From assembly GCF_053078305.1 (NCBI RefSeq), contig NZ_CP166879.1: a DNA stretch of 64,000 nt. One strand, 5' to 3'. Each line of letters starts with the position of its first letter. Positions within the stretch are counted from its first letter, which is position 1. Of the stretch, positions 1-6,000 are shown piece after piece. The position numbers are program-made.

Positions 1-3000
1 TCATTTTCCGTGCTGTTTTCAGCCGGAGAACGACCAACCATTCGGGCCAGCACTTCATCAACATATGCGTCGATTTGTGCCTCAAAATCCTTGCGAACCT
101 GCGCCTTCAGCACGCGGTTCACTTCTTCAGAATAAAGTGCCTGTTTGACAAGCTCTTCAGTAACCGTGCCTTTAATCTCTGGCATGAATATTCTCCTTTC
201 CTTTTCTGGTTCACAAAAAATTAAATCTGACCGGAGTCTTTCGGCTGCGGCATTACAGCACCGCTTTTTATCTTTTCCTCGGCAGCTGCATCAATTTTAT
301 TTCGAAAATAATTGCGAATAATTTTATAACCACCGCTGACAAGCAACAGACAACAAACCACCGTGCAGAAATACAGCAGGCAGACGTTTATATATGTCAT
401 ATAAGCCTCACTCTTATTAACTGATGTTACAGCCGGATAAATTCCCGGCCGTCACGATTATGCCGCAGGGGTATTAACCTCAAGGACAACGCTCTCAAAA
501 GACACGCCATAAGTTGCCCCTTTGGTGACATCTGTCAGTGTCAGCGTATCTTTGGCAGGGGAAAGTGCATCTTTCACCATCTGGAATGCCTGGCCCGGAG
601 TGCCATCCAGCACAGGCGTTACCTGGGCACTTCCCGCAGTAAACTTCAGGACAAGTGTATGCCACTGGTTATTGTAGGCTCCAAATGATCCCAGTTTCGT
701 ATTCCCCCCTGTTTTATGGTGCATCAGATTTAACTGGCCGCCTGTTGTCTGGAGATAATACGCCATCAGGAACGGTGTGCCTGTACCACTCATGGTTACA
801 CCTTCCGGGACCGTATCGGTGTGGAGGTAAATACCCAGAGCAAACTGGCCTTCTTTTACTTCACCTGACAGACGGAATTTACAGGTCAACTGACCACCAT
901 GCTTCAGAAGTTCACCGGCTGCATCAGTTCCATGGGTAAGCGTCCAGGTTTTTCCGCTTTGTTTGGATACGGTCAACGCTTTACCTTCGTCCGTCAGCTG
1001 GATTGTACCATCTGTAATTTTCCATCCCTGAGCCGGGGCTTCCCCTGCTGATGCTTTAAGTGAAAGCAGCGTACGGAGTGACGGGGATGTCGGCTGGGGG
1101 GACTCACTGCTTCCTGGCTGACTACCTGTCGGAGCTTCCGGTTTTCCACCCGGCGCGGGCTGAGGCAGGGCTTCACCATCAGGGGCCACACCGGCAATAA
1201 ATGCAGAGGTCAGACCTGCATATTTAAGAATTGCTGATGCAAAACGATCTGAGACCAGAAAACGGCGCGCCCAGGAGCTAAAATGGGTTGCCCTGGATGC
1301 TGTTGTCCAGTTGCCATCTCCCCGTGATTCCGCACCATAATACCCGGCAGAAGCGATATCCGGGTCGTGCTCCGGCAGGTTGGTCGCGGTTTTATTACCG
1401 AACTCATCGTGCATCAGTGGAACAAAGTGAATGTTCTCGGAAGCCCGGTTTTTATATCCGCTATAAATGGTTTCATATGCCGCCGGGTTCTTCTCTTTCC
1501 AGTCATAGGTTGTGTCACCACATAACCACGGCACACTGTCTGATGAACCACCAATACACTGACCGGAGAAAGCACCAAGATCCGCACGGAATTTTTTCAC
1601 CATCGCAGTAAACTGGGCACCATGCTGGGCCGGGGTCGCTTTAAGGTCTCCTTCCCCCTGAATCCATACGACAGATAACAGCACATTCTTTGGATTCGCC
1701 TCAAGTGCCGCTTTCGTTCGACTGACAAGATCCTGATACAGTGGGGTATCCACTCCCCAGCGTAGTGACGCCTCGGCTGCACCACTTGCCGGATCGAATG
1801 AGCCAACTGCGCCGGTTGTAAAAGCAGAGCCGCCACGGGCACAGGGAACCAGTAAAATCCCGGCATCAGCAGGAATCACCGGTAATACTTTTTTCGCAAT
1901 ATGAAGTCCCTGACCCACACAACCATACTGCCCTTTTTTCAGGTCTGCTTTTGGATGGTTCAGCAGACTCATATTCTGAACATCATGAAGGCAGTGATCT
2001 GCTGGAATGATTTCATTGTATTTGCAGGGAATACCCCCGGGGGTTTGTGTATTCCTGCGTGCCAGCTGCATAATACGTGGATCAGGACGATCATAAGAAT
2101 CCGGCAGGGGCAACCCTTCACCATAAGATGAAGCATTGGACTGACCGGCTATAACAATCACGTAATACCAGGAAGGGGAGCTGGAAGCCGTTTCATTTCC
2201 TGCCGGACGGGTATGTGTGTCAGCATTATCCCAGTCTGACGGTTCAGCAGTACCGGCAACATCAGCACTTAACGGAATGACAGCACCAATACCCGCTCCG
2301 GTAATTTCCACGTTCGGATCACCGGATACTGGCCTTACCCACAGGCAATCCCGTGTATTAAAACTGATGAGACAGTCAGCAAATGTCATTCCTCCTTTCG
2401 TTTCAGCCGGAGGAAAGGGAGCCTCAAGAAATGCCGCTGTACCACCGGAAACTTTAACGGTAAAGTTTCCGGGCATTGATGATAGTTGAACCCATTTGGA
2501 CGTCATAATATTCATCCTGTTCCTGAATAAACAGAATTATCATATCCACAGACCGATAAACGCCATTTTGCGTTAATTCAGTAAAGGCCCAACAAAGGGA
2601 GCGTCTTATTTTTCCGAAATGCTCGCAGGATAATAACGATAAAGGGTTGAAAGGCCGATATCAAAAATAAGTGCCACCTGTCTTCGGCTGACACCCCCGG
2701 CCAGTAAACGCCCGACCTGCTCGTATTGTTCCTGCGTGAGACGACGGGGTCTGCCGCCGGTTCGTCCCCTTTCACGGGCAGCTGCAAGACCAGCCCGTGT
2801 CCGTTCGACAATCAATTCACGCTCCATTTCTGCCAGCGCACCCATTATGTGAAAAAAGAAGCGCCCCATGGGGGTTGACGTATCAATGTTGTCAGTAAGA
2901 CTACGAAAATGTAAGCGTAAACTGACCGCCGTATGTAGCCATTAAGCCAGTATTGGTAACGTAGGTGCCCACCTTTTCAACTAGTGGACACCTGTTATGG

Positions 3001-6000
3001 AACAGAAAATATTATCCTCAGAACCCCGCAGATCATTTTCAAATGAGTTTAAACTTCAAATGGTTAAACTGGCTTCACAACCAGGAGCCTCTGTTGCCCG
3101 TATTGCCCGGGAACACGATATCAATGATAACCTCCTGTTCAAATGGCTCAGGCTCTGGCAGAACGAAGGGCGTATATCGCGGCGTCTTCCGGTAACAACC
3201 TCTTCTGGCGCTGGCGTTGAATTATTACCTGTTGAGATAACGCCTGATGAGCAGAAAGAGCCTGTGGCGGCTCTTACTCCGCTTTTATCCACTCCTTCAC
3301 AAAGCACAGTCAGTGCCAGTTCCTGTAAAGTTGAGTTCCGCCACGGTAACATGACGCTGGAAAATCCTTCACCAGAGCTGCTCACGGTGTTGATCCGTGA
3401 ACTGACCGGGAGGGGACGATGATCTCGCTCCCATCAGGCACTCGAATCTGGCTGGTTGCCGGCGTTACTGATATGCGTAAATCCTTCAACGGTCTGGGAG
3501 AACAGGTACAACATGTGCTGGATGAGAACCCCTTCTCCGGTCACCTGTTTATCTTTCGCGGCCGACGGGGTGACACGATTAAAATTCTGTGGGCTGATGC
3601 TGATGGTCTGTGCCTGTTCACCAAACGTCTGGAGGAAGGCCAGTTTATCTGGCCTGCGGTGCGTGACGGTAAGGTATCCATTACCCGCTCGCAGCTGGCA
3701 ATGCTCCTCGATAAACTGGACTGGCGTCAGCCCAAAACATCCCGCCTTAATGCACTGACAATGTTGTAAAAATGTCATGGCCGGATTATAAAAACGGTCA
3801 TGAGTCGGAAATACCTCATTCGTATCACTGAGCTGGAAAGGCTGCTCTCTGAGCAGGCTGAAGCCCTCCGTCAGAAAGATCAGCAACTGAGTCTGGTTGA
3901 AGAGACGGAGGCCTTCCTGCGCTCTGCACTGGCACGTGCCGAGGAAAAGATCGAAGAGGAGGAGCGGGAAATAGAACATCTGAGGGCCCAGATAGAAAAA
4001 CTGCGCCGGATGTTGTTCGGTACCCGTTCTGAAAAACTGCAGCGTGAGGTTGAACAGGCTGAGGCCCAACTGAAACAACGCGAACAGGAAAGCGATCGTT
4101 ACAGTGGGCGTGAGGATGACCCGCAGGTTCCCCGCCAGTTGCGACAGTCACGTCATCGTCGTCCGTTACCGGCACATCTTCCCCGTGAAATACACCGTCT
4201 GGAGCCTGAAGAAAGTTGTTGCCCGGAGTGTGGCAGTGAGCTGGATTATCTGGGGGAAGTCAGTGCTGAGCAGCTGGAACTGGTGAGTAGCGCCCTGAAA
4301 GTGATCCGCACTGTTCGGGTAAAAAAAGCCTGTACAAAATGTGACTGTATAGTTGAAGCGCCAGCGCCGTCCCGCCCGATAGAGCGCGGCATCGCGGGCT
4401 CCGGATTACTTGCCCGCGTGTTAACGGGAAAATACTGCGAACACCTGCCACTGTATCGTCAGAGTGAAATCTTTGCCCGCCAGGGCATCGAACTGAGCCG
4501 GGCATTACTCTCCAACTGGGTTGACGCATGTTGTCAGTTAATGACTCTGCTGAATGATACCCTGTACCGTTACGTGATGAACACCCGCAAGGTTCACACT
4601 GACGACACACCAGTAAAAGTGCTGGCAGCGGGCAGAAAAAAGGCAAAAACAGGACGCATCTGGACGTATGTCCGGGATGACCGGAATGCGGGCTCATCAG
4701 AGCCACCGGCGGTCTGGTTCGCCTACTCACCAGACAGGCAGGGAAAACATCCGGTACAACACCTTCGTCCCTTCCGGGGTATCCTGCAGGCGGATGCGTT
4801 CAGCGGTTACGATCGGCTGTTCAGTGCAGAACGTGAAGGTGGTGCACTGACAGAAGTTGCGTGCTGGGCCCATGCCCGGCGAAAAATCCACGATGTATAC
4901 ATCAGCAGCAAAAGTGCGACGGCAGAAGAAGCCCTGAAGCGAATCAGTGAACTGTACGCCATCGAGGATGAAATACGGGGATTACCGGAGTCAGAGCGTC
5001 TTGCCGTCAGGCAGCAGCGAAGCAAAGTGTTACTGACGTCACTGCATGAATGGATGGTGGAGAAGAATGGTACGCTGTCGAAAAAATCCAGACTGGGCGA
5101 AGCGTTCAGCTATGTACTGAATCAGTGGGATGCCCTCTGTTATTACAGTGATGACGGTCTGGCGGAGGCGGATAATAATGCTGCGGAAAGAGCGCTTCGT
5201 GCAGTCTGTCTCGGAAAGAAAAACTTTATGTTCTTTGGCAGCGATCACGGCGGCGAGCGTGGAGCACTGTTGTACGGGCTGATCGGCACCTGCCGTCTGA
5301 ACGGTATCGATCCGGAAGCGTATCTGCGCCATATCCTGAGCGTACTGCCAGAATGGCCTTCCAACCGAGTTGATGAACTCCTGCCATGGAACGTAGTACT
5401 CACCAATAAATAAGCGTCAATACGGTGCTCCGTTGACGCTTACGAAAATTTATCCCCTGTTGCTGTAATTCATCTGTCAGCGCAACAAGGTGGCGCATAC
5501 TGCGCCCCAGCCTGTCCAGTTTCCAGACCATCAGCGTGTCACCGGGTTTTAGTTTCTTCAGTGCCCGCTTCAGTCCCGGCCGCTGCGTTGTTTTTCCGCT
5601 CATTTTATCTTCAAAAATCAGCTCACATCCTGCACATTCCAGCGCATTTCTTTGTAAACCTGTGTTCTGGTCATTTGTTGATACGCGTATATAGCCAATC
5701 AGCATGTATTTACCTTCCTTAAAAAGAGGTGAAAATGCCTTTTAAAGCAGATATACGACATACCTGAAACCTCGGTTTACGGGAAACGGTAAACAGGGCT
5801 GCAAATGCCCTGCCATCGAATGGTACAGCCGTAGCGGCAAACAAGCTGTCTGCGGCACGTAAAATTAACGGTGTTGCGTTCGATGGCACAAAGGACATCA
5901 CTATTACATCCGGGATGACCCAGTCTACAGCAGACGGCAGATATGTTCGTAATGTGCAACTTGGTGCTCAGAGCCGCCACTCTCCTGCGGGTAATGAAGT

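What the first reader, a model, noticed from the sequence alone, without database searches (positions are those of the whole stretch)
2606..5705. Invertase gene (gin-like) split by an IS66-family element with a perfect 8-bp target duplication, locking the tail-fibre switch
The N-terminal catalytic half of a Gin/Hin-type serine invertase (5442-5705) ends ...GINFR at the IS. The C-terminal half resumes at 2910 reading FRSLTDNIDTSTPMGRFFF... in the same frame. ACGAAAAT is present at both junctions (2903-2910 and 5442-5449); removing the IS and one repeat copy restores one continuous ~190-aa invertase. Without a trans-acting invertase the fibre segment should be frozen in its current orientation. 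The 2.5-kb insertion also lengthens a headful-packaged genome, which may make the prophage defective.
Basis: seen in the sequence. Interest (0 to 1): 0.6.

Follow-up and report, generated by a model that had tools for sequence, protein, structure and literature searches.

The report
IS682 insertion splits a prophage invertase
A common E. coli jumping gene (IS682) recently landed in the gene for the enzyme that flips the tail-fibre switch of a Mu-like prophage, breaking that enzyme; this is a real but ordinary case of prophage decay.

Summary
A Gin-type serine invertase gene on the minus strand is split at codon 88 by a complete 2,533-bp IS682 (IS66 family, 2911-5443). Removing 2,539 bp restores a 186-aa ORF. 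Its 561-nt sequence is 100% identical to intact genes in eight other E. coli.

One correction. Seven other IS682 insertion sites show the element ends ...CGCTTAC with 8-bp duplications outside it. Here only 6 bp (GAAAAT) flank the element.

The window is E. coli strain 48 (JPQG01000003.1). The host element is a Mu-like transposable prophage. The insertion was found nowhere else searched. The IS matches another copy in the same genome at 100%, so the hop looks recent.

Both gix-like crossover sites, the probable enhancer region and both fibre alternatives are intact. Relatives carry the 1.375-kb segment in both orientations. The switch has lost its own enzyme. It is "locked" only if no other Gin/Pin-type invertase acts in trans, which I could not test.

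With the IS the prophage is 40,955 bp, against 38,840-39,132 bp in relatives. The headful concern is therefore reasonable but unproven.

Ordinary biology, low interest.

The parts
5444..5705 (-). 5' part of the gin-like serine invertase gene: nt 1-262, with the catalytic Ser9 in the motif YIRVSTNDQ. As it stands the ORF reads on into the IS and ends at 5400, giving a 101-aa product.
   Evidence: The 101-aa product hits Pfam PF00239 Resolvase. 100% identical to the intact gene of relatives over nt 1-265.
2606..2910 (-). 3' part of the invertase gene: the E-helix and the C-terminal HTH_7 DNA-binding domain, with the stop codon at 2606-2608.
   Evidence: Pfam PF00239 + PF02796 on the intact 186-aa protein. 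Aligns to Gin residues 89-182.
2911..5443 (+). Complete IS682 (IS66 family), 2,533 bp. Imperfect terminal inverted repeats are about 2911-2935 and 5419-5443, each starting GTAAGCGT.
   Evidence: 99.9% identical over the full length to annotated IS682 copies. 100% identical to a second copy in the same genome, L031 on contig JPQG01000002.1. Boundaries fixed by 7 other insertion sites.
2997..3422 (+). IS682 tnpA (141 aa)
   Evidence: NCBIfam NF047595, 85.5 bits against a cut-off of 74
3419..3769 (+). IS682 tnpB (116 aa)
   Evidence: NCBIfam NF033819, 121 bits against a cut-off of 50
3800..5413 (+). IS682 tnpC, the DDE transposase (537 aa)
   Evidence: NCBIfam NF033517, 442.7 bits against a cut-off of 180. 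The exact protein is listed in 431 blocks of the public collection.
2903..2910 (.). Left copy of the direct repeat ACGAAAAT. The flush 6-bp duplication GAAAAT is 2905-2910.
5442..5449 (.). Right copy of ACGAAAAT. Positions 5442-5443 (AC) are the last two bases of the IS; the flush 6-bp duplication GAAAAT is 5444-5449.
5760..5785 (+). Invertase-proximal gix-like crossover site, ATACCTGAAACC TC GGTTTACGGGAA. 21 of 26 bases match Mu gix (my count on the alignment).
   Evidence: It is the boundary of the segment found inverted in relatives.
7135..7160 (-). Distal gix-like crossover site inside the tail-fibre gene. On the minus strand it reads TTATCGATAACG TC GGTTTACGGGAA, with an inner half-site identical to that of the proximal site.
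5773..7147 (.). Invertible segment of 1,375 bp. It carries the alternative fibre C-terminus (plus strand, 5773-6154), one tail-fibre assembly gene (6189-6710, minus strand) and the currently expressed fibre C-terminus (6790-7147, minus strand).
   Evidence: The segment is 93.6-99.7% identical but inverted in L007-L014 (99.4-99.7% in five of them) and in the same orientation in L005; L035 and L036 match the window's gene layout. In-silico inversion gives a 303-aa fibre that is 298/303 identical to the fibre of relatives.
6790..7677 (-). Tail-fibre gene in its current state (295 aa), followed by the tail-fibre assembly gene on the same strand.
5590..5700 (-). 5' coding region of the invertase, corresponding to where the Mu and Hin recombinational enhancers lie. 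It is still contiguous with the segment, on the switch side of the IS.
   Evidence: 79% nt identity to Mu gin over nt 1-120 against 66-68% elsewhere. That the enhancer lies inside the invertase gene comes from the titles of Kahmann 1985 and Johnson & Simon 1985 as listed in PMC4513852. Function here is inferred.
458..2515 (-). Downstream 685-aa gene with SASA (sialate O-acetylesterase-like) and DUF6645 domains, lying between the invertase and com/mom. Possibly affected by polarity from the IS.
   Evidence: Pfam PF03629 + PF20350 on record. Full length, 99.3% identical to the relative.

Best explanation
A full-length IS682 (IS66 family) transposed into codon 88 of the gin-like serine invertase gene of a Mu-like transposable prophage in E. 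coli strain 48. The most likely donor is the 100% identical copy elsewhere in the same genome. The insertion separates the catalytic domain (residues 1-88, now with a 13-residue IS-encoded tail) from the E-helix and the HTH DNA-binding domain, so it is a null allele.

Everything the switch needs in cis is intact: two 26-bp gix-like sites, the 5' coding region where Gin/Hin enhancers lie, and both alternative fibre C-termini. The 1.375-kb tail-fibre segment therefore can no longer be flipped by its own enzyme. It sits in the orientation that expresses the 295-aa fibre plus its assembly protein. It stays fixed there unless another Gin/Pin-type invertase in the cell acts in trans.

The insertion also lengthens the prophage to 40,955 bp, about 5% more than intact relatives. 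For a Mu-type left-to-right headful packager this may clip the right end from packaged DNA.

Shown: the split, the identity of the IS, the healed ORF, intact cis sites, both orientations among relatives, and the prophage lengths. Inferred: loss of activity, the enhancer function, locking, and any packaging defect.
For: Split and healing. The healed gene is 100% identical in DNA to 8 intact relatives, and the junction 40-mer is exact in 15. The exact healed protein is on record in at least 24 contigs.

IS identity. It is 100% identical to a second copy in the same assembly, which has a canonical 8-bp TSD.

Gin homology: 2e-90 to 3UJ3/4M6F, 73% identity, Ser9 present.

Crossover sites and segment. 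Relatives carry the segment in both orientations (gene layouts). In-silico inversion yields the 303-aa fibre seen in relatives.

Mu-like nature: MuA/MuB, Gam, Mor, gp45-48, DNA circularization protein, Com/Mom, and a different insertion site in every genome examined.

Singleton allele: 0 of 5,426 complete genomes carry the occupied site, and the 101-aa truncated product is on record once in the whole gene index.

The rest of the prophage is intact against a relative. Lengths are 40,955 against 38,840, 38,840 and 39,132 bp. No other invertase or IS682 copy lies in the window.
Against: No functional data exist: activity, inversion frequency and phage production were not measurable here.

The duplication is not the canonical 8 bp flush with the element, so either the event or its aftermath was slightly atypical.

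Trans-acting invertases are well documented in E. coli (PMC12529663), so 'frozen' may be wrong for this strain.

The head capacity of this phage family is unknown.

The assembly around the prophage has oddities that advise caution. Its two flanks come from different genes (ftnB and yegH), and contig JPQG01000010.1 duplicates the left end.
Confidence: 0.88

Rival explanations
1. The switch is not frozen. Another small serine invertase elsewhere in the strain 48 genome (e14 PinE, PinQ/PinR, or the invertase of another prophage or plasmid) binds the intact gix-like sites and keeps flipping the segment, so the IS insertion has little phenotypic effect on host-range switching.
For: Both crossover sites and the enhancer-equivalent region are intact and contiguous. 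PinE inverts the Mu G segment and the Salmonella H segment, PinQ/PinR invert the e14 P segment, and Fin acts on the H segment (PMC12529663). The proximal site matches Mu gix at 21 of 26 bases (count on the alignment). E. coli genomes often hold several prophages, and related invertase DNA is found in 911 of 5,426 genomes.
Against: No second invertase lies in the 64-kb window. The exact intact 186-aa protein was not seen on any contig over 1 Mb, the size of this assembly's large contigs. The rest of the genome could not be searched with these tools.
Confidence: 0.4
2. The IS within the invertase is an assembly artefact, that is, a multi-copy IS placed wrongly in a draft genome.
For: IS682 is multi-copy in this genome. 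The assembly has a redundant contig overlapping this prophage, and the prophage has non-matching flanks.
Against: The two gene halves abut the exact IS termini with a target-site repeat. Removing exactly IS + 6 bp gives a gene with zero mismatches to intact alleles. A misjoin would not create a duplication of target bases at both junctions.
Confidence: 0.03
3. The insertion was selected rather than neutral. Fixing the fibre in one orientation, or crippling an inducible Mu-like prophage through an oversize genome and loss of switching, benefits the host, so this is a step in prophage domestication.
For: An independent lineage (L018/L019) carries a 1-bp frameshift in the same invertase, so loss recurs. 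The prophage is otherwise intact, so this is an early lesion.
Against: The allele is a singleton. The IS and the healed gene carry no further mutations, so the event is too recent to show selection. IS hits in prophage genes are expected under neutral decay.
Confidence: 0.1

Closest known systems
Bacteriophage Mu Gin / G-segment inversion system
   Same: A small serine invertase (73% identical, same length class, Ser9) sits next to an invertible tail-fibre segment near the right end, upstream of com/mom. The crossover sites are 26 bp and the proximal one matches 21 of 26 bases. The conserved 5' coding region is where the Mu enhancer lies. The fibre constant part lies outside the segment and the variable part inside.
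   Different: The segment is 1.375 kb rather than 3 kb and carries only one tail-fibre assembly gene (no U' equivalent). A 685-aa SASA/DUF6645 gene sits between the invertase and com/mom. The invertase here is insertionally inactivated.
e14 PinE / P segment, and PinQ/PinR acting in trans (E. coli K-12)
   Same: A prophage tail-fibre inversion switch whose segment can be flipped by invertases encoded elsewhere. pinE mutants have the segment locked (PMC12529663).
   Different: e14 is a defective lambdoid element with two fibre/assembly gene pairs. Here the host element is an otherwise complete Mu-like prophage, and the lesion is a natural IS insertion rather than an engineered deletion.
IS682 (IS66 family; relatives ISEc8, IS66)
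   Same: 2,533 bp, tnpA-tnpB-tnpC, GTAAGCGT... terminal repeats, 99.7-100% identity to other complete copies (99.3% to one copy with indels).
   Different: The other 7 insertion sites examined have an 8-bp duplication flush with the ends. This copy has 6 bp flush, or 8 bp if the terminal AC is counted twice.
Mu derivatives carrying insertions (Bukhari & Taylor 1975, as cited in PMC7350765)
   Same: Insertions into a Mu-type genome use up the host DNA normally packaged at the right end. Mu packages about 100 bp on the left and about 1.5 kb on the right.
   Different: That work was done on Mu itself. For this prophage family neither the head capacity nor the pac site has been measured, so the consequence is inferred.

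Membership tests
IS66 family / IS682 | Three ORFs, tnpA-tnpB-tnpC, with an IS66-type DDE TnpC | tested here: met
   NCBIfam: TnpC 442.7 bits (cut-off 180), TnpB 121 (50), TnpA 85.5 (74). Pfam LZ_Tnp_IS66, zf-IS66 and DDE_Tnp_IS66 on record.
IS66 family / IS682 | Near-identity to the named element over its full length, with terminal inverted repeats starting GTAAGCG | tested here: met
   99.9% over 2,533 bp to copies annotated IS682. Inverted-repeat alignment.
IS66 family / IS682 | 8-bp target-site duplication directly flanking the element | tested here: inconclusive
   All 7 other insertion sites examined have perfect 8-bp duplications. Here the flanks are ACGAAAAT / GAAAATTT, which is a 6-bp flush repeat, or 8 bp overlapping the terminal AC of the IS. 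This fits a 2-bp loss at an ACAC junction, a 2-nt recessed end, or a 6-bp duplication.
Gin/Hin/Cin/Pin serine DNA invertases | Small serine recombinase with an N-terminal catalytic domain (active-site Ser9/10), an E-helix and a C-terminal HTH | tested here: met
   The healed protein has PF00239 + PF02796, scores 2e-90 to Gin structures over residues 1-182 and has Ser9 in YIRVSTNDQ. In the window as it stands the gene is split.
Gin/Hin/Cin/Pin serine DNA invertases | Two inverted 26-bp crossover sites with the same central dinucleotide bounding an invertible segment | tested here: met
   Sites at 5760-5785 and 7135-7160, centre TC, identical inner half-sites.
Gin/Hin/Cin/Pin serine DNA invertases | The segment actually inverts | tested here: met
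   Met across genomes, not in this strain. L007-L014 carry the segment inverted at 93.6-99.7% identity and L005 carries it in the window's orientation; L016 and L018 have the inverted gene layout and L035/L036 the window's layout. In-silico inversion reproduces their 303-aa fibre.
Gin/Hin/Cin/Pin serine DNA invertases | Fis-dependent recombinational enhancer in cis, within the 5' part of the invertase gene | tested here: inconclusive
   The first 120 nt are 79% identical to Mu gin against 66-68% for the rest of the gene, and one Fis-like degenerate match lies at 5621-5635. Coding constraint alone could explain this. No binding test was possible.
Mu-like transposable phages | MuA-type transposase plus MuB ATPase, Mu-type head and tail genes, and insertion at many unrelated chromosomal sites | tested here: met
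   PF02316/PF09299, PF09077, Gam, Mor, gp45-48, DNA_circ_N, Com and Mom. The right end ...GCGCTATA is followed by a different host sequence at 14 distinct sites across 17 relative loci.
Mu-like transposable phages | 5-bp target duplication flanking the prophage | tested here: inconclusive
   Three relatives show 4 bp unambiguously (CTGG, AACG, GTAA), and 5 bp in only two of the three. The window's prophage has no duplication at all: its flanks are yegH and ftnB.
Mu-like transposable phages | Headful packaging from the left end with host DNA at both ends | not testable with these tools
   Inferred from homology to Mu only. It needs sequencing of virion DNA.

The most novel reading that the evidence does not exclude
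The IS-hit prophage marks one endpoint of a large chromosomal inversion (about 150 kb on the K-12 scale) made by Mu-type replicative transposition, or by recombination between two inverted prophage copies, in a wild E. coli isolate. Its left end abuts the 3' part of ftnB and its right end the 3' part of yegH, in exactly the inversion-junction configuration and with no target duplication. If so, a second prophage copy, possibly with an intact invertase, exists or existed. Separately, the 6-bp rather than 8-bp flush duplication would be a rare atypical IS66-family insertion product.
Probability: 0.25. Interest if true: 0.4.

Novelty: new member of a known kind. Interest (0 to 1): 0.17.

Why it matters
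The finding is a clean, datable example of an early lesion in prophage decay. A single IS hop removes a phage's ability to alternate its receptor-binding fibre while every other prophage gene compared with an intact relative remains full-length. For annotation, the two 'recombinase' fragments and the IS should be reported as one interrupted gin-like gene. For strain 48, any phage it releases would carry one fibre type only, unless another invertase helps, and may package poorly. None of this changes current understanding of invertases, IS66 elements or Mu-like phages.

Tried and rejected
1. P2-like phage with cos packaging, suggested by the J/I-like baseplate genes. Rejected: MuA/MuB, Gam, Mor, Com/Mom and random insertion sites show a Mu-like phage.

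2. Looking for the same insertion elsewhere. There are 0 occupied sites in 5,426 complete E. coli genomes, and only the source contig carries the truncated product.

3. Looking for a second prophage copy or an intact invertase in strain 48 by exact-protein look-ups.
- MuA is on two contigs, but the second (JPQG01000010.1) is a 100% redundant copy of window 29944-44034 and ends inside the prophage.
- Mom is on one contig only.
- Predicted YegH N-terminal fusion products were uninformative. The 208-aa query equals native YegH residues 1-208 and hit only genes cut by contig ends. The 211-aa version is not on record.

4. Searching both prophage-host junctions in complete genomes found none.

5. 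Two classic papers (the Johnson 2015 review and Bukhari & Taylor 1975) are not held. Their content is cited only through titles and reference lists or marked as my own knowledge.

6. The first K-12 coordinate guess for yegH was wrong because the record is in reverse orientation. It was corrected.

7. A Fis-motif scan is too degenerate to prove an enhancer.

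
Full report
**1. The observation**

Reading 2400-6000 directly and listing ORFs shows the following on the minus strand:
- An ORF starts at 5705: MLIGYIRVSTNDQ...QQQGINFR. It then runs into unrelated codons (KRQRSTVLTLIYW*).
- A second piece from 2910 down to the stop at 2606 begins (F)RSLTDNIDTSTPMGRFFF.

Between the two pieces lie three plus-strand ORFs of 141, 116 and 537 aa.

The 8-mer ACGAAAAT is at 2903-2910 and 5442-5449, with one further copy on that strand in the 64 kb. 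Deleting 2911-5449 gives one uninterrupted 186-aa ORF.

**2. The insert**

The stretch 2911-5443 (2,533 bp) is 99.9% identical over its full length to elements annotated as 'IS66-like element IS682' in many E. coli genomes. The three proteins pass NCBIfam's curated cut-offs for IS66 TnpA, TnpB and TnpC.

I checked the true ends of IS682 on other insertion sites. The tellurite-island site was sampled in four genomes, and six further complete copies came from an exact-TnpC look-up. All seven sites are exactly 2,533 bp, run GTAAGCG...CGCTTAC, and have a perfect 8-bp duplication immediately outside.

Applying the same ends to the window, the flanks are ACGAAAAT (left) and GAAAATTT (right). Only GAAAAT is duplicated flush with the element.

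Three histories give this same sequence, and I cannot tell them apart:
- a canonical 8-bp duplication followed by loss of one AC from the resulting TTAC-AC junction;
- an insertion using an end recessed by 2 nt;
- a non-canonical 6-bp duplication.

Removing IS + 6 bp, or '2531 bp' + 8 bp, is the same 2,539-bp operation, so the healing result is unaffected.

**3. Whether the healed gene is real**

- The healed 561-nt gene is 100.000% identical to the intact gene in eight other E. coli loci.
- The 40-mer across the healed junction is present exactly in 15 loci.
- The exact 186-aa protein is on record in at least 24 contigs.
- An empty site with an intact 'recombinase family protein' exists in complete genomes, for example NZ_AP027256 at 98.7% over the 1,262-bp healed region.
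- The protein matches the Mu Gin crystal structures 3UJ3 and 4M6F at E = 2e-90 over residues 1-182. It keeps the catalytic Ser9 and is 73% identical to Mu Gin.
- The IS sits after codon 88. It cuts the catalytic domain from the E-helix and the HTH_7 domain, so neither fragment can be an active invertase. This last step is an inference from the domain organisation of small serine recombinases (PMC4513852).

**4. Source and context**

An exact look-up of the 101-aa truncated product found one contig in the whole index: GCA_000736735.1, contig JPQG01000003.1. This is E. coli strain 48, used as the subAB2-3 reference genome (PMC5323612).

None of 5,426 complete E. coli genomes carries the occupied site.

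The IS copy is 100% identical over 2,533 bp to another copy in the same assembly, which has a canonical 8-bp duplication (L031). Together with zero mutations in the healed gene, this points to a recent hop within the genome.

**5. The host element is a Mu-like prophage**

The element is not P2-like. It encodes:
- a MuA-type transposase, the MuB ATPase, Gam and Mor;
- Mu gp45-48 baseplate proteins, the DNA circularization protein and a tape measure protein;
- Com and Mom.

About 226 of 5,426 complete genomes, many of them STEC serotypes such as O157:H7 and O111:H11, carry at least 80% of a related prophage. Across 17 relative loci the right end ...GCGCTATA is followed by a different host sequence at 14 distinct sites, as expected for a transposable phage.

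Against an intact relative (strain War), every other prophage gene is full-length in a single alignment. The exceptions are the diverged immunity and early region (c, ner-like, and one small early ORF that aligned only partly). The invertase is the only visible lesion.

**6. The switch**

- Inverted arms at 5768-5948 and 6972-7152 contain two 26-bp sites. One is ATACCTGAAACC-TC-GGTTTACGGGAA at 5760-5785. The other is TTATCGATAACG-TC-GGTTTACGGGAA on the minus strand at 7160-7135.
- The proximal site matches Mu gix at 21 of 26 positions (my count on the alignment).
- The eight relatives fetched with the identical invertase protein (L007-L014) carry the 1,385-bp stretch in the opposite orientation at 93.6-99.7% identity, with five of them at 99.4-99.7%. 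L016 and L018 have the same inverted gene layout.
- L005 has the window's orientation, and L035 and L036 show the window's gene layout.
- Inverting 5773-7147 in silico converts the present 295-aa fibre into a 303-aa fibre that is 298/303 identical to the one expressed in those relatives.

The switch is therefore functional in the family, and both of its states are coding-competent in this prophage.

The current state expresses the 295-aa fibre with the only tail-fibre assembly gene (6189-6710) on the same strand.

The 5' coding region of the invertase, where the Mu and Hin enhancers lie, stays on the switch side of the IS. [quoted passage not shown] This region is the part of the gene best conserved with Mu gin: 79% against 66-68%. 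That is suggestive only.

**7. Is the switch locked?**

The prophage's own invertase is gone, and no other invertase-like sequence lies in the window. But the cis sites are intact, and cross-action among these enzymes is well documented:
- PinE inverts the Mu G segment and the Salmonella H segment.
- PinQ/PinR invert the e14 P segment.
- pinE mutants are locked (PMC12529663).

I could not search the remainder of the strain 48 genome. 'Locked' is therefore a conditional inference, which I put at roughly even odds. An independent lineage (L018/L019) has a 1-bp frameshift in the same gene, so loss of this invertase recurs.

**8. Length and packaging**

Using the conserved termini, the prophage spans window -1698 to 39256. 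That is 40,955 bp, or 38,416 bp without the IS and its duplication. Three intact relatives measure 38,840, 38,840 and 39,132 bp.

Mu packages by headful from the left end, taking about 100 bp of host DNA on the left and about 1.5 kb on the right on average (PMC7350765; about 2 kb according to PMC5557969). From my own knowledge of Bukhari & Taylor 1975, which I could not read here, insertions shorten that right-end host DNA.

An excess of 1.8-2.1 kb is of the same order as that slack. Loss of the right end from many particles is plausible, but the capacity of this family's head is unknown.

**9. Side observations on the prophage ends**

- The right end abuts codon 207 of yegH. The left end abuts the 3' part of ftnB.
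- These genes are about 155 kb apart in K-12 (map positions from my own knowledge), and there is no target duplication.
- The arrangement ftnB3'(reverse)-prophage-yegH3' is what an inversion between two inverted prophage copies would leave.
- Only one complete copy is visible in the assembly: Mom is found once, and MuA appears on a second contig that is a 100% redundant copy ending inside the prophage.
- Neither junction occurs in any complete genome.

A real inversion, a lost second copy and a chimeric contig all remain open.

**10. Verdict**

The finding is real and well read, with one correction (the duplication) and two untested inferences (locking and the packaging defect). It is a new instance of a very familiar kind of event, an IS knocking out a prophage gene. 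I rate it as of low general interest.

Noticed in passing
window 39246-39260 (left end) and L006 17395-17410 (right end, 1.7 kb before window position 1): The two flanks of the prophage come from different genes: the 3' part of ftnB on the left and yegH from codon 207 on the right. These are about 155 kb apart in K-12, there is no target duplication, and the configuration is that of an inversion junction. It is either a large prophage-mediated inversion or a chimeric contig.
   Followed up: partly
L015 (JPQG01000010.1 84449-98539) = window 29944-44034: A second contig of the same assembly, 105.9 kb long, duplicates the prophage left end and its host flank at 100% identity. It stops inside the prophage at about window position 22,583. 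This is assembly redundancy or a hint of structural heterogeneity or a second copy.
   Followed up: partly
window 5773-7147: The invertible segment carries two alternative fibre C-termini but only one tail-fibre assembly gene. In the other orientation the 303-aa fibre has no assembly gene downstream, unlike Mu (S-U / S'-U').
   Followed up: partly
window 458-2515 (-): A 685-aa protein with SASA (sialate O-acetylesterase-like) and DUF6645 domains sits between the invertase and com/mom, a position that is empty in Mu. It has no NCBIfam hit. It may be a receptor-modifying or tail-associated enzyme, and it lies just downstream of the IS-split gene.
   Followed up: no
L018 6003-6562 and L019 93-652: Another lineage of the same prophage family, with its right end in a different host site, has a 1-bp indel that splits the invertase into 84-aa and 87-aa ORFs. 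This is independent loss of the same enzyme.
   Followed up: partly
L035 1990/40829, L036 1961/40800, L005 + L024: With termini TATAGCG...GGTTACA (window orientation), three intact relatives show only 4-bp unambiguous target duplications (CTGG, AACG, GTAA) rather than the 5 bp of Mu. The right terminus ends TA-3' rather than CA-3'.
   Followed up: partly
L035 22879-22958 (equivalent to window about 21,700-21,800): RefSeq annotates a 'tRNA-OTHER' between the virion morphogenesis and head morphogenesis genes of relatives. ARAGORN finds no tRNA there in the window, only host leuZ-cysT-glyW at 44013-44314.
   Followed up: no
window 38057-39005: The immunity region (repressor and ner-like genes) is only 26-39% identical to that of strain War's otherwise 90-100% identical prophage. 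This fits heteroimmune variants within the family.
   Followed up: no
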